Shown here piece after piece: positions 47,603 through 50,745 of a stretch of 64,000 bases of DNA. How positions within the stretch are numbered: the first letter of the stretch is position 1; each line of letters begins with the position of its first letter. The stretch spans positions 256,001 to 320,000 of the forward strand of contig JBDHZC010000002.1 in the NCBI GenBank assembly GCA_039811685.1, in the 5' to 3' direction. Source of the stretch: Armatimonadota bacterium. Lineage in GTDB: Bacteria; Armatimonadota; UBA5829; DSUL01. Below the pieces are notes generated by a model. That model did no database searches and was not told the origin of the DNA. It saw only the letters and a list, made by a program, of their open reading frames with translations. The translations under genes and the position numbers were made by a program.

Positions 47603-48133
47603 ATGTATTCCAAAGACTGGGAAGTCCTGGCTCTGGAGCCGGGCGCTTCCGTTGCACAAATCAAATCAGCGTTTCGAAGAAAGGTGCGTGAGTCGCACCC
47701 GGACGTCTGTCCGGGTGATGACACCGCCGAGGCTCGGCTGGAAGCCGTGGTCCAGGCCTACCAGAGGCTGCTTCGAGAGCAGGAGACGGTCGATCTTGCG
47801 CACAGGCTGTTTCCGGATGGTCCGGCCCCCGGCGAAGCGCTTTTACGCAATGCGCGGCCTGCGCCACAGAAACCAGACTGGCGCTATGGTGCACTCCTGC
47901 GCAATTTGCGGCGAGGCGCGCAAACACTTGCGCTGATAGCGCTGCTTGCCACACCTGTCGTCTCCGCGGTCCTCGGTGGCATGATCGCGCACCCCTGGAT
48001 CGTCCACACCGCCGAGCAACACTGGGAATCACACAAAGATCCGATCAGCCCGGACGAGCGCTATGCGCAGGCGCTGCTGTATGGAAAACAAAACGAGCGT
48101 CCTGCGCCGATCCGAGTGTCTGAAGAGCGCTGA
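47603..48133 (+). CDS. J-domain (DnaJ-like) protein with a C-terminal TM segment
   Basis: IKSAFRRKVRESHPD (HPD motif); hydrophobic LALIALLATPVVSAVLGGMI. Confidence 0.8.
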   Translation: MYSKDWEVLALEPGASVAQIKSAFRRKVRESHPDVCPGDDTAEARLEAVVQAYQRLLREQETVDLAHRLFPDGPAPGEALLRNARPAPQKPDWRYGALLRNLRRGAQTLALIALLATPVVSAVLGGMIAHPWIVHTAEQHWESHKDPISPDERYAQALLYGKQNERPAPIRVSEER

Positions 48134-48287
48134 ATTCAGGTTGCGGCTCTGTGTCCGATAGATCTCCCCATGCGGGGATTGGTCGAATCGCCCAGCGCCT
48201 CGCACTCCCGAACAGTCCCAGACACAACGCTTCAGATCTGCTGGAGAAGTGGATAGACTCTCAGTAAAGCCACGTAAGGAGTCTCAG

Positions 48288-48833
48288 TTGAAAACACAGA
48301 GAAGGAAAATCGGAATTCTGGTGGAGCAGGACTATCAGGACCTGGAAGTATGGTATCCGGCTTTGCGGCTCAGAGAAGAGGGCTGGGAGACATGTTTTGT
48401 GGGAAGCGGGACGACTGATGGCTACACAGGTAAGTATGGCTACCCCGTAGAGGTTGACAGAGCCATCCACGACGCCAGAGTAGATGACTTCGACGCTATC
48501 GTCATACCGGGTGGCTGGGCGCCGGATTTGATGCGCCGGGAGCCACGTTTTGCCCAGTTCGTTCGGGAGTTTTCCGGCTCCGGTAAGCCTGTGGCCTGCA
48601 TCTGTCACGGTGGGTGGATACTCATTTCCGCGGGCATTCTGAAGGGCCGTCGCGCCACATCGTTCTCGGGAATTCAGGATGACATGATCAACGCGGGCTG
48701 CCACTGGCGCGATGAAGAGGTGGTGGTGGATGGCAATCTCATCACCAGCCGAAAGCCAGAAGACCTGCCCGCGTTCTGTCGTGAGTTGATTACTATGCTC
48801 AAAAGTCAGCCAGGCGCTGGAGTCGCGCGCTAA
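48288..48833 (+). CDS. PfpI/DJ-1 family protein
   Basis: YQDLEVWYP, IPGGWAPD, ICHG, DGNLITSR.PEDLP; AAGGAG RBS before TTG 48288. Confidence 0.93.
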   Translation: MKTQRRKIGILVEQDYQDLEVWYPALRLREEGWETCFVGSGTTDGYTGKYGYPVEVDRAIHDARVDDFDAIVIPGGWAPDLMRREPRFAQFVREFSGSGKPVACICHGGWILISAGILKGRRATSFSGIQDDMINAGCHWRDEEVVVDGNLITSRKPEDLPAFCRELITMLKSQPGAGVAR

Positions 48834-48939
48834 CCGCACATCAGTCACGTCGTTTGGCGCGCCACGCAAATATGGAACAAAAACTGTAGACGGGGGAATG
48901 TATAGACCCGTTTCTGAGCGCGAGCAAGAGCGCGCAAAC

Positions 48940-48968
48940 TTGACACAGGCTCGGGGGAGCGGTACAAT
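48940..48968 (+). promoter_or_regulatory. Near-consensus sigma70 promoter driving the structured leader and rpoN
   Basis: TTGACA-17 nt-TACAAT. Confidence 0.8.
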
Positions 48969-48974
48969 TCCGAT

Positions 48975-49269
48975 AAGCTCCTGCGCCGACTCTACGCTGA
49001 GACCATGTGGTAAGCAGGACATCTTGAGCCGGAAAGACGGCGCGTAACAGGGGCATTCGCTGGGACTGCAGTCATAACTGGGATAATGACTGCTTCTGAG
49101 TGCCTCTCCAGACACGACTGCCGCTTCGGTTGCCCGCTCGCGAGACCGGTGTCATTCGTCCCCGCTTACCAGCCGTTGAAAAGGCTGTTTCCGGCTGAGC
49201 CTGCCTCTGTGTGCAGACTTGGCGTTCTGTCTTGCGGACTGCGGCCGTAGAGACTGGGTCGACTTTTTT
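48975..49269 (+). ncRNA. Candidate structured, pseudoknot-capable RNA or 5' leader of rpoN
   Basis: Closing helix 48990-96/49246-52; crossing helices 49008-15/49164-71 and 49027-35/49188-96; internal arms; T6 at 49264-69. Confidence 0.5.
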
Positions 49270-49317
49270 GAAATCCGCACACTGCTGTCCGGAGTATCAA
49301 GTGAAGAGGCTGGCACC

Positions 49318-50745
49318 TTGCTACTGAGACAAGGCCTTAGGCAAACTCTAAGTCAAAAGATTGATCCGAAGATCATTCTGGCCAACAACGTTCTGGCGTG
49401 CTCTACGCTGGAGCTGACGGAGATGATCGAGCAGGAGTTAGCTGACAACCCCGCTATCGAACGCCCTGATGACGATATCTGCAGCGCGTGCGGAGTGCCA
49501 CGCGAGCTGTGCGTCAACTGTCCGTACAAGCAGGAGCAGCAGAAGGCAGACGCATCAGAGGACATTGACTGGCGGGACTGGCTGGCTCCGGACGTGGAGT
49601 ATGTGGGCGTTGTCGGTCATGCGGACGATGAGTTTGACCCCATCGCGAATCTGCGCTCACAACATACGCTCCACGACCACCTGCTGGATCAACTCCGCGC
49701 GACGGGCGACAAAGAGAGCTTCCCGATTGGTGAGGCTATTATCGACAGCATCACCGGCACGGGCTACTTCGAAGGTTCGCTGGAGGAAATAGCGGCGGAC
49801 CTCAAGGTAACAGCGGCCGAGGCCAGGCTGGTGCTGAACCTGATTCAGACTTTTGACCCCGCTGGAGTCGGGGCGACTTCGGTGCAGGAGTGTCTGGCGA
49901 TTCAGCTCCGGGCTTTGGATGAGCAGACTCCGCTCAGCCGCCTGGCTCTGCGTATGGTTGAAGACTACTGGGCCGACACCCACTCACGGAAAATCACCCG
50001 GCTGGCGCATCATCTGAAAGTGCACAAGCAGACGGTCCAGAGCGCATTGAAGTTCATCCGGGAAGAGTTGTCCCCGCATCCGGGCGAATGCTTCCGCCTG
50101 CCCTGGGACACAAACCCCGAGAACGCGCAGTCCGTGCAGCCGGATATAATCGTGCGCCGGACGATGGCGGGGTACGAGATCGATGTGCTCATCACAGAAA
50201 ACCAGTCTCTCGCCCTCAACAACAAATATCGCGAAGCCTACGCCAATATTCGCAACGGCGGCTCCAGAAACTATTCGTCCGATGAGCGCAGGCACATTGT
50301 GGAGTACGTGGAGCGGGCTGATGCGTTTATCCGCAGCATTCTCCAGCGGCGCAAGACTCTGCGGGCTATCACGAAATACGTCGTTGAATACCAGCAGGGT
50401 TACATCGAGACATCCCAGAAAAACTTCCTGCGCCCGTTGACGCGAACACAGGTGGCCAAAGCCCTGGGCTTGCACGAGTCCACCGTCAGCCGAGCGACCG
50501 CCAACAAATGGATGCAACTCCCCAGTGAGGAGGTGGTCAGCTTCGATCCCTTCTTTGACGGGTCCATTTCCATCAAAGACCTCATTGAGGAGATTATTGC
50601 GCAGGAAGACAAGCGGCGGCCGTTGTCCGATCAGGAGATAGCCGAGATTTTGCAGGAGCGCGGACTGAATGTTGCTCGCCGGACTGTGGTCAAGTACCGC
50701 GAAGCTCAAAACATCCTCTCGAGCCGTCAGCGCCGTGCGAGCTGA
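49318..50745 (+). CDS. rpoN: RNA polymerase sigma-54 factor
   Basis: Region I L.Q.L.Q, EQELADNP, FDPAGVGA, LHESTVSRA, RpoN box ARRTVVKYRE; TTG start after GAAGAGG. Confidence 0.96.
   Translation: MLLRQGLRQTLSQKIDPKIILANNVLACSTLELTEMIEQELADNPAIERPDDDICSACGVPRELCVNCPYKQEQQKADASEDIDWRDWLAPDVEYVGVVGHADDEFDPIANLRSQHTLHDHLLDQLRATGDKESFPIGEAIIDSITGTGYFEGSLEEIAADLKVTAAEARLVLNLIQTFDPAGVGATSVQECLAIQLRALDEQTPLSRLALRMVEDYWADTHSRKITRLAHHLKVHKQTVQSALKFIREELSPHPGECFRLPWDTNPENAQSVQPDIIVRRTMAGYEIDVLITENQSLALNNKYREAYANIRNGGSRNYSSDERRHIVEYVERADAFIRSILQRRKTLRAITKYVVEYQQGYIETSQKNFLRPLTRTQVAKALGLHESTVSRATANKWMQLPSEEVVSFDPFFDGSISIKDLIEEIIAQEDKRRPLSDQEIAEILQERGLNVARRTVVKYREAQNILSSRQRRAS

What the first reader, a model, noticed from the sequence alone, without database searches (positions are those of the whole stretch)
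48975..49269. ~290-nt pseudoknot-capable RNA between a near-consensus promoter and rpoN
Seen: TTGACA-17-TACAAT (48940-68) lies ~350 nt upstream of the rpoN start. The leader has a closing helix CTCTACG(48990-96)/CGTAGAG(49246-52). Two long helices cross each other: TGGTAAGC(49008-15)/GCTTACCA(49164-71), extended by GGAC/GTCC, and AGCCGGAAA(49027-35)/TTTCCGGCT(49188-96). There is also an arm of GGGGCATTC/GAGTGCCTC capped by GCAGTCAT/ATGACTGC, plus GACAC/GTGTC and CAGCC/GGCTG, and it ends in T6 (49264-69) about 50 nt before rpoN. Inference: either a pseudoknotted ncRNA co-transcribed with sigma54, or a riboswitch/attenuator controlling rpoN with the crossing helices as alternative states. I do not recognise it as a known family.
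Basis: partly seen in the sequence, partly recalled or inferred. Interest (0 to 1): 0.72.

Follow-up and report, generated by a model that had tools for sequence, protein, structure and literature searches.

The report
Long leader of the sigma-54 gene
The stretch is the unusually long untranslated front end of the messenger RNA for the sigma-54 gene, started from a strong promoter that related bacteria also keep, but the knotted fold proposed for it is not supported beyond chance.

Summary
The promoter (48940-48968) is real. The same near-consensus sigma-70-type site lies 96-378 nt upstream of rpoN in 39 of 45 unique rpoN loci of this Armatimonadota class, against about 0.016 expected per locus. 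So 48975-49317 is best read as the 5' leader of rpoN (TTG start at 49318), and it is the longest in the class.

The proposed fold is weakly supported:
- Whole-region folding energy equals that of shuffles (z 0.04).
- 24 of 638 windows of the same size in this 64-kb window have as many long perfect stems.
- No Rfam family matches.
- No DNA similarity was found in 40 relatives' genomes.

Two pieces stand out: one hairpin arm (49049-49107, z -3.07) and a 22-nt block (49140-49167) shared only with one sister genus.

The T6 run follows a weak hairpin (-7 kcal/mol). RNA-library contigs run across it into rpoN.

Verdict: a lineage-specific, expanded rpoN leader, probably acting on translation or mRNA stability. 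A free-standing ncRNA or a riboswitch is not shown.

Side finding: relatives outside this family carry a conserved block next to the ribosome-binding site that resembles flagellar promoters. This genome lacks it.

The parts
48249..48833 (+). Upstream gene, DJ-1/PfpI family. It is not syntenic with rpoN in the relatives.
   Evidence: Pfam PF01965, E 7e-51. The upstream genes differ in the relatives.
48940..48968 (+). Promoter P1, sigma-70 type: -35 hexamer, 17-nt spacer, -10 hexamer
   Evidence: Scores 11 of 12 and is the only such site in 2 kb. The same pattern occurs upstream of rpoN in 39 of 45 unique loci of the class.
48975..49317 (+). Inferred 5' leader of rpoN mRNA, about 343 nt. The start is inferred from the -10 position and has not been mapped.
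   Evidence: Position of P1. No other promoter-like site was found. RNA-library contigs cover it and join it to rpoN.
48990..49252 (+). The MFE uses a neighbouring alternative instead, 48987-92 with 49256-61.
49008..49171 (+). Helix A, 49008-15 with 49164-71. Its 3' strand overlaps the conserved block.
   Evidence: It is present in the MFE. A possible counterpart in genera g2 and g3 was seen by eye.
49027..49196 (+). Helix B, 49027-35 with 49188-96 (9 bp). It crosses helix A.
   Evidence: It is present in the centroid structure, but not in the MFE.
49049..49107 (+). Stable hairpin arm with a 10-nt purine-rich loop
   Evidence: -26.6 kcal/mol, z -3.07, reached by 1 of 200 shuffles
49140..49167 (+). 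Block conserved with genus g2: 22 of 22 nt identical, with a 6-nt insertion here
   Evidence: Local alignment score reached by 0 of 300 shuffles for each of L005, L006 and L007. The block is unique in the own genome.
49199..49208 (+). Predicted pairing partner of the ribosome-binding site (candidate anti-SD)
   Evidence: Pair probability about 0.52 with 49305-49314. This does not exceed the shuffled-upstream control.
49242..49269 (+). Weak hairpin (49242-61) followed by T6 (49264-69). The hairpin overlaps the 3' strand of the closing helix.
   Evidence: -7.0 kcal/mol, z 0.13. Not called by the terminator scan. Crossed by RNA-library contigs in X7, X16 and X18.
49304..49320 (+). Shine-Dalgarno sequence (49304-10) and TTG start codon (49318-20)
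   Evidence: Orthologs align from residue 1-3. The Pfam activator-interacting domain starts at residue 4.
49318..50745 (+). rpoN (sigma-54), 475 aa
   Evidence: Pfam Sigma54_AID, Sigma54_CBD and Sigma54_DBD

Best explanation
The region is the 5' untranslated leader of the rpoN mRNA. RNA polymerase with the housekeeping sigma factor starts at a near-consensus promoter (48940-48968). It transcribes about 343 nt of non-coding RNA and runs on into rpoN, which begins with a weak TTG codon.

The promoter, and the habit of a long leader, are shared by the whole class. The body of this leader is a lineage-specific expansion and is the longest of 39. Only a 22-nt block (49140-49167) is held in common, and only with one sister genus.

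Shown here: promoter conservation, the absence of any known RNA family, the lack of conservation of most of the fold, and the weak terminator.

Inferred: the leader acts in cis on rpoN, damping or modulating translation and mRNA stability. A strong promoter, a long folded leader and a TTG start together point that way. The ribosome-binding site and start codon would be partly occluded by pairing with 49199-49208 and by a local hairpin. Hfq or CsrA, both encoded in the genome, are candidate trans-acting partners.

Most of the listed helices are probably incidental pairings of a GC-rich sequence.
For: - Promoter: 11 of 12 matches and the only site in 2 kb.
- The same pattern lies within 450 nt upstream of rpoN in 39 of 45 unique loci. 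The own-genome background is 249 sites per 6.84 Mb of strand, or about 0.016 per locus. Distances are 96-378 nt, median 198, and ours is the longest.
- No second sigma-70-like site lies before rpoN.
- RNA-library contigs join the leader to rpoN across T6: X7 48919-49710, X16 49182-49566, X18 49195-49382.
- No Rfam match in the window or in 20 relatives' loci. 6S RNA lies elsewhere in the genome.
- The region is single-copy, not a repeat and not a gene remnant.
- A 22-nt block is shared with g2; 0 of 300 shuffles reach the score.
- The SD is predicted mostly paired, mean unpaired probability 0.21.
- Relatives outside this family show a C-rich block complementary to the SD. It is paired in the MFE in 26 of 45 loci, median z -1.86, so occlusion of the ribosome-binding site may be a class habit.
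- CsrA and Hfq genes are present.
Against: - No transcription start has been mapped. In three of four RNA libraries the contigs begin at 48901-48927, upstream of the -35. That means read-through from the upstream gene or DNA in the library. Only X17 begins at 48985.
- SD occlusion does not exceed a control in which the upstream leader is shuffled: 0.286 +/- 0.10, and 24% of 200 shuffles are as low.
- The class-wide SD-proximal block does not match here: best PWM score -6.8, against 14-39 for the 20 training sequences.
- The outer helix of that block shows no covariation beyond its control; 148 of 500 shuffles reach the score.
- Three perfect stems of 8 nt or more, and the z -3.07 arm, are somewhat more order than a neutral spacer should show.
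- Contigs of two studies stop at 49159 and 49162. This could mark a 3' end or a processing site that this reading does not predict.
Confidence: 0.6

Rival explanations
1. Transcription attenuator or riboswitch. The closing helix (48990-96 with 49246-52) and the hairpin before T6 (49242-61) share bases, so they exclude each other. A ligand or protein that stabilises the large domain would prevent termination at T6 and let rpoN be transcribed. Helices A and B would form a pseudoknot, or two alternative states, within the sensor.
For: - The overlap of the two structures is visible in the sequence.
- The crossing helices are sterically possible: the loops are 11, 128 and 16 nt.
- There are more long perfect stems than in shuffles; 1 of 300 shuffles reaches the count.
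- The MFE uses helix A and the centroid uses helix B.
- A strain variant at 49263 lengthens the T run.
Against: - The hairpin is weak (-7.0 kcal/mol, z 0.13), lies 2 nt from the run, and is not called by the scan.
- RNA-library contigs cross T6 in two studies.
- Neither T6 nor the domain is conserved in the five genomes of the same family.
- Whole-region z is 0.04.
- No Rfam match, even at E up to 10.
Confidence: 0.1
2. Free-standing small RNA. P1 makes a separate non-coding RNA that ends at T6 or is cut near 49160. rpoN is then transcribed from its own weak promoter overlapping T6: a -35-like hexamer at 49267-72, an 18-nt spacer, and a poor -10 at 49292-97.
For: - In X17 the leader piece (48985-49159) and the rpoN piece (49292-49733) are separate contigs with different depth, 4.5 against 10.3.
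- Contigs of X16 and X17 stop at 49162 and 49159.
- Relatives outside the family have a promoter-like conserved block at the corresponding place.
Against: - Contigs cannot show ends or levels, as the tool's own caveat states.
- Three libraries bridge the leader and rpoN.
- The X17 rpoN contig starts at 49292, upstream of any start that such a promoter would give.
- The proximal site fails the promoter scan: its -10 matches 3 of 6.
- The PWM of the relatives' block does not match here.
- 6S RNA is elsewhere.
Confidence: 0.08
3. DNA-level control region. The inverted repeats are protein-binding sites (operators or looping sites) on the DNA rather than RNA helices.
For: - Four inverted repeats of 7-9 nt lie within 295 nt.
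- The conserved block contains a short palindrome.
- Overall RNA folding energy is unremarkable.
Against: - The repeats lie 26-260 nt apart and downstream of the promoter.
- None recurs elsewhere in the genome.
- Such repeat counts occur in 24 of 638 windows.
Confidence: 0.05
4. Leader peptide. The 54-codon frame 49086-49250 is translated, and the conserved block encodes part of it.
For: - The block lies in the same frame in this genome and in g2.
- The 6-nt insertion is in frame.
- One difference within g2 is synonymous.
Against: - The start codons differ or are missing in g2.
- The g2 frame has no stop before it overlaps rpoN.
- Nothing outside the block is similar.
- There is no Pfam match.
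- Open frames of this length occur on both strands here, as expected at 58% G+C.
Confidence: 0.03

Closest known systems
rpoS mRNA leader of Escherichia coli (from my own knowledge, not from a call)
   Same: - A sigma-factor gene with a leader of several hundred nucleotides.
- The upstream part of the leader can pair with the ribosome-binding region.
- Hfq is encoded in the genome.
   Different: - No sequence or family relation.
- No partner small RNAs are known here.
- Occlusion here does not exceed the control.
- The gene is the sigma-54 gene, of a different protein family.
CsrA-controlled flagellar leaders such as Bacillus subtilis hag (from my own knowledge)
   Same: - Flagellar regulatory context: CsrA is encoded next to a flagellar hook-associated gene.
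- There are hairpin loops with GGA-type purine motifs. Examples are the arm loop at 49076-85, and loops in relatives' leaders.
   Different: - The ribosome-binding site of this rpoN has no GGA.
- Binding is untested.
- Relatives fit this picture better than this genome does.
Riboswitch or attenuator expression platforms (terminator / anti-terminator)
   Same: A large closed domain has a 3' strand that overlaps a hairpin followed by a T run.
   Different: - No conserved aptamer.
- Weak hairpin.
- Read-through is seen in RNA-library contigs.
6S RNA
   Same: A non-coding RNA of a few hundred nt behind a strong promoter, tied to sigma-factor biology.
   Different: The Rfam 6S model matches another contig (C4:98721-98916, 52.3 bits) and not this locus.

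Membership tests
Any Rfam 15 family | Covariance-model match at or above the gathering score | tested here: not met
   0 matches in the 64-kb window. Within 48700-49500 at E up to 10, the only hit is a 12-bit cobalamin fragment inside the upstream gene. 0 matches in 20 relatives' rpoN loci.
6S RNA | Match to RF00013 at this locus | tested here: not met
   The only match in the genome is at C4:98721-98916.
Sigma-70-type promoter | -35 and -10 hexamers with a 16-18-nt spacer | tested here: met
   11 of 12 matches with a 17-nt spacer. Conserved in 39 of 45 unique loci.
Sigma-70-type promoter | Mapped transcription start about 7 nt after the -10 | tested here: inconclusive
   Only contigs were available. 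X17 starts at 48985; X7, X16 and X18 start at 48901-48927.
Riboswitch / attenuator | Sensor domain conserved in sequence and structure among relatives | tested here: not met
   0 of 40 relatives' genomes match by blastn. No significant alignment with g3, and only 22 nt shared with g2.
Riboswitch / attenuator | Intrinsic terminator: stable G+C-rich hairpin directly followed by a U run | tested here: not met
   Not called by the scan. The hairpin is -7.0 kcal/mol, z 0.13, and lies 2 nt from T6.
Riboswitch / attenuator | Ligand-dependent structural change | not testable with these tools
   Needs in-line probing or SHAPE.
H-type pseudoknot | Two crossing helices supported by covariation | tested here: inconclusive
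   The crossing is real. Only three genera are available. One possible compensatory change in helix A was seen by eye. Strain variants at 49037 and 49263 lie outside the helices.
Leader that occludes the ribosome-binding site (rpoS-like) | SD and start codon paired more than expected | tested here: inconclusive
   Mean unpaired probability 0.21 against 0.29 +/- 0.10 with a shuffled upstream part. 24% of 200 shuffles are as low.
Class-wide SD-proximal block of rpoN leaders (families f2-f5) | Match to the 35-nt block built from 20 relatives | tested here: not met
   Best score in 48901-49320 is -6.8, and not at the expected place. The training sequences score 14-39.

The most novel reading that the evidence does not exclude
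The leader is a working RNA switch private to this genus. A pseudoknotted domain is closed by 48990-96 with 49246-52, and its formation competes with a weak terminator at T6. The domain is built around the conserved 22-nt block, and it sets the level of sigma-54. It would be an expanded version of a class-wide, undescribed rpoN control leader. In other families of the class that leader combines a strong housekeeping promoter, a block that hides the ribosome-binding site, and a flagellar-type promoter box.
Probability: 0.1. Interest if true: 0.6.

Novelty: new member of a known kind. Interest (0 to 1): 0.3.

Why it matters
Sigma-54 is usually described as made constitutively, with control exerted through its activators. 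This is general knowledge, not from a call. A whole Armatimonadota class keeps a near-consensus promoter, a leader of 100-350 nt and mostly a TTG start in front of rpoN. That suggests the amount of sigma-54 itself is tuned after transcription in this little-studied phylum. For this particular window the lesson is more modest. The leader is real, but its eye-catching helices are mostly what a GC-rich 300-nt stretch gives by chance. Only the promoter, one hairpin arm and one 22-nt block deserve experiments.

Tried and rejected
- **Known RNA family:** rejected. 6S RNA rejected. No tRNA or tmRNA in the window.
- **Repeat or mobile element:** the region is single-copy in the own genome.
- **Remnant of a gene:** tblastx against relatives' upstream regions and against the own genome gave nothing below E 0.7 apart from self.
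- **Closer relatives, for covariation:**
  - Metagenome contigs gave 4 loci, the best at 66% RpoN identity.
  - Genome contigs gave 4 loci, the best at 66%.
  - The class holds 53 genomes. Only 5 are in the same family and none in the same genus.
- **The 22-nt block elsewhere in the phylum:**
  - The pattern hit 22 of 401 genomes.
  - The reversed-pattern control hit a similar number, about 25 by my count of that table.
  - None of the 19 fetched places outside the family lies near an rpoN (tblastn gave 0 of 19). I treat these hits as chance.
- **Read laying gaps:** 49163-81 in X16, 49160-291 in X17 and 49182-94 in X18 have no cover. Contig gaps prove nothing, so I do not use them as evidence.
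- **RNAalifold on 20 relatives' SD-proximal segments:** no consensus pairs were returned, because MAFFT does not put the variable inner hairpins in register. I dropped the covariance-model route for the same reason.
- **Sigma-54 self-promoter at the start codon or at 49128-41:** the spacing or bases do not fit the recalled -24/-12 consensus (by eye).
- **Flagellar-type box in this leader:** not found (by eye and PWM).
- **Papers:** two full-text searches, of which I saw the listings only and read no paper. The listed motif-discovery papers have 0 occurrences of rpoN, and nothing concerned an rpoN leader in Armatimonadota. One search call failed on a character.
- **Earlier notes of this scan:** nothing at this place and no look-alike sequence.
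- **Rows dropped before the 45-locus counts:** L061 (the contig starts inside the gene, so the N-terminal query found nothing) and 5 exact duplicates.

Full report
**What is in the sequence.**
- A -35/-10 pair with a 17-nt spacer lies at 48940-48968. One search scores it 11 of 12, and it is the only promoter-like site in 48000-50000.
- The 7-bp closing helix pairs 48990-96 with 49246-52.
- Helix A pairs 49008-15 with 49164-71, and helix B pairs 49027-35 with 49188-96. These two cross.
- The imperfect arm is capped by an 8-bp stem. Two 5-bp pairs and T6 at 49264-69 are also present.

The gene downstream is rpoN, with Pfam Sigma54_AID, CBD and DBD domains. Its most likely start is the TTG at 49318, not the longest-ORF start at 49219. 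Three things support this:
- Orthologs align from residue 1-3.
- The activator-interacting domain starts at residue 4.
- A purine-rich ribosome-binding site lies at 49304-10.

The upstream gene (48249-48833) is a DJ-1/PfpI protein. The organism is an uncultured member of the Armatimonadota. This follows from the record titles of the nearest relatives and from sludge and bioreactor runs that hold the DNA.

**Is the fold more than chance?**
Whole-region evidence says no. The MFE of 48975-49275 is -106.5 kcal/mol against -106.7 +/- 5.2 for dinucleotide shuffles (z 0.04; 47 of 100 shuffles fold as well). The opposite strand gives z -0.54.

Counting perfect stems gives a mixed answer.
- Three stems of 8 nt or more are observed against 0.47 expected, and 1 of 300 shuffles reaches three.
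- Yet 24 of 638 overlapping 295-nt windows of this same 64-kb window reach three as well. A reader who scans the window will find several such places.
- For stems of 7 nt or more, 14% of shuffles reach the observed count. For 9 nt or more, 11% do.

Folding the pieces separately:
- The arm 49049-49107 is unusually stable (-26.6 kcal/mol, z -3.07, reached by 1 of 200 shuffles).
- The hairpin before T6 is not (-7.0, z 0.13).
- Nor is the stretch from T6 to the start codon (z 0.08).
- Nor is the stretch around the conserved block (z -0.29).

It uses a neighbouring alternative, 48987-92 with 49256-61. The MFE contains helix A and the centroid contains helix B. That is what competing pairings in a GC-rich sequence look like.

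**Known families.**
- Rfam 15 has no match at gathering score in the window.
- Within 48700-49500 at E up to 10, the only hit is a chance 12-bit fragment inside the upstream gene.
- There is no match in 20 relatives' rpoN loci.
- There are no tRNA or tmRNA genes in the window.
- The genome's 6S RNA lies on another contig.
- The region is single-copy. It shows no trace of a decayed gene or a repeat.

**The promoter is real and old.**
RpoN orthologs were found in 35 of 40 relatives and in 43 of the 53 genomes held for the class, counting the window's own. I collected upstream regions from those loci, from 13 further regions and from metagenome contigs. I then dropped five exact duplicates and one locus cut by its contig end.

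This left 45 unique loci. In 39 of them, ours included, a -35 hexamer, a 16-18-nt spacer and a -10 hexamer lie within 450 nt upstream of rpoN. In the own genome this pattern occurs 249 times in 6.84 Mb of strand, so about 0.016 would be expected per locus.

The distance from the -35 to the start codon is 96-378 nt, median 198, and ours is the longest. The upstream gene differs between families, so the promoter travels with rpoN. A long rpoN leader is therefore a trait of the class.

**Most of the 290 nt is private to this genus.**
- blastn finds the region in none of 40 relatives' genomes.
- No closer relative than 66% RpoN identity exists in the metagenome or genome collections.
- Local alignment of the leader interior against the five same-family leaders is significant only for genus g2. 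A 22-nt block at 49140-49167 is identical apart from a 6-nt insertion here, and 0 of 300 shuffles reach the score for each of three g2 genomes.
- For genus g3, 236 and 226 of 300 shuffles reach the score.
- The block is unique in the genome.
- A phylum-wide pattern search hit 22 of 401 genomes. The reversed control hit about as many, and none of the 19 places outside the family lies near an rpoN. The block therefore belongs to the rpoN leaders of two genera only.

The 3' strand of helix A overlaps the end of the block. By eye, g2 and g3 can form a shorter counterpart of helix A, with one compensatory change. Three lineages cannot carry a covariation argument.

Strain variants seen in RNA-library contigs (A to G at 49037, C to T at 49263) lie outside the helices.

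A 54-codon frame (49086-49250) holds the block in the same frame as in g2. Its start and stop are not conserved and it has no Pfam match.

**T6 is not a convincing terminator.**
- The scan does not call it.
- The hairpin before it is weak and 2 nt away.
- It is absent from the other two genera of the family.
- Contigs from RNA libraries cross it into rpoN in X7 (48919-49710), X16 (49182-49566) and X18 (49195-49382), from two studies.

There are caveats. These are contigs, which cannot show ends, strand or level, and RNA libraries can hold DNA. In three libraries the contigs start at 48901-48927, upstream of the -35. Only X17 starts at 48985, about 10 nt after the inferred start.

Contigs of X16 and X17 stop at 49162 and 49159, at the conserved block. 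That is a weak hint of an RNA end or a processing site, and I cannot follow it further.

An attenuator layout is therefore formally possible, and I keep it as a rival at 0.1.

**How it most likely works.**
A near-consensus promoter, a long folded leader and a TTG start point to high transcription with limited or modulated translation.

In the Boltzmann ensemble of 48975-49360, the ribosome-binding site pairs with 49199-49208 (probability about 0.52). The start codon sits in a local hairpin with 49330-34 (about 0.89). The mean unpaired probability over 49304-49320 is 0.21. With the upstream part shuffled the value is 0.29 +/- 0.10, and 24% of 200 shuffles are as low.

Occlusion is thus plausible but not demonstrated. 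The genome encodes Hfq. It also encodes CsrA next to a flagellar hook-associated gene. Both are candidate partners, and neither is tested.

**What the relatives add.**
Outside this family, rpoN leaders carry a conserved 35-nt block 43-90 nt before the start codon, further away where insertions occur. It contains a C-rich pentamer complementary to the extended ribosome-binding site.

In 26 of 45 loci the MFE pairs the two, with median z -1.86 and 11 loci below -2. The segments were chosen by my own rule, which favours pairing.

On a 20-sequence alignment, 79% of cells of that helix pair, against 53-73% for slid controls. Covariation does not exceed the shuffle control (148 of 500 shuffles reach the score), because both strands are conserved.

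The block also contains a box that resembles the -10 element of sigma-28 promoters, a consensus I recall rather than took from a call. In one genus it contains instead a different box. Both box types recur upstream of flagellin genes in this class.

The block may therefore be a second, flagellar-type promoter, an RNA element, or both. This genome has two FliA/WhiG-type sigma genes and a flagellin gene. Its rpoN leader does not match the block: the best PWM score is -6.8, against 14-39 for the training set.

If that holds, rpoN sits inside the flagellar hierarchy here. I did not test it.

**Verdict.**
The promoter is real and conserved, and the RNA is the rpoN leader. The specific pseudoknot and riboswitch reading is not supported by energy, by background statistics or by conservation. 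It cannot be tested further with the three genera available.

I file it as a new, lineage-specific member of a familiar kind: a long structured 5' leader of a sigma-factor gene. Interest is low to moderate. The class-wide promoter and SD-proximal block are the more promising lead.

Noticed in passing
Relatives' loci L003-L063, upstream of rpoN; window 48940-48968: A near-consensus sigma-70-type promoter lies 96-378 nt upstream of rpoN in 39 of 45 unique loci of the class. Outside this family it has an extended -10, and the first transcribed bases are also similar.
   Followed up: yes
Relatives' loci, e.g. L008, L012, L016, L021, L054-L057, 43-90 nt before the rpoN start: A conserved 35-nt block combines a C-rich anti-SD pentamer with a box like the recalled sigma-28 -10 element. 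In one genus a different box takes its place. Both box types also occur upstream of flagellin genes of the class. The block may be a second, flagellar-type rpoN promoter, an RNA helix hiding the ribosome-binding site, or both. It is absent from this window.
   Followed up: partly
Relatives' loci of family f4 (e.g. L010, L019, L053-L055), between promoter and SD-proximal block: A second conserved hairpin begins with a C-rich hexamer. Its loop holds a GGA-like purine motif, reminiscent of CsrA sites. The same C-rich hexamer ends the 22-nt block of this window.
   Followed up: no
window 49480-49523 (RpoN residues 55-68): RpoN carries a CxxC-x6-CxxC motif between the activator-interacting and core-binding domains. 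All four cysteines are invariant in 8 of 8 orthologs aligned across the class. This may be a metal-binding knuckle in region II of sigma-54.
   Followed up: partly
window 49318-49320 and relatives: Most rpoN orthologs of the class start with TTG, with a few at GTG or ATG, followed by a conserved second to sixth codon. A weak start codon kept across a class fits translational tuning.
   Followed up: no
window 49159-49195: Contigs from three RNA libraries break here. X16 ends at 49162, X17 at 49159 and X18 at 49181, at the conserved block. This could be strain variation, low cover or an RNA end.
   Followed up: no
window 49037 and 49263: Two strain variants appear in RNA-library contigs. A to G at 49037 is seen in X7. 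C to T at 49263 is seen in X7 and X16 and lengthens the T run to seven.
   Followed up: no
L048:1287-1320 (own genome, contig C7, upstream of flagellin): The flagellin gene of this genome is preceded by a 9-nt box. The same box recurs upstream of flagellin genes in four relatives from three families. It is probably the -10 element of a FliA/WhiG-type sigma factor of this class. Two such sigma genes pass the family cut-off here.
   Followed up: partly
window 48890-48939: Two small hairpins lie between the DJ-1/PfpI stop and the -35: one followed by a short T-rich run, and one G+C-rich directly upstream of the -35. In X7 the RNA-library contigs run from the upstream gene into the leader, so read-through from that gene is possible.
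   Followed up: no
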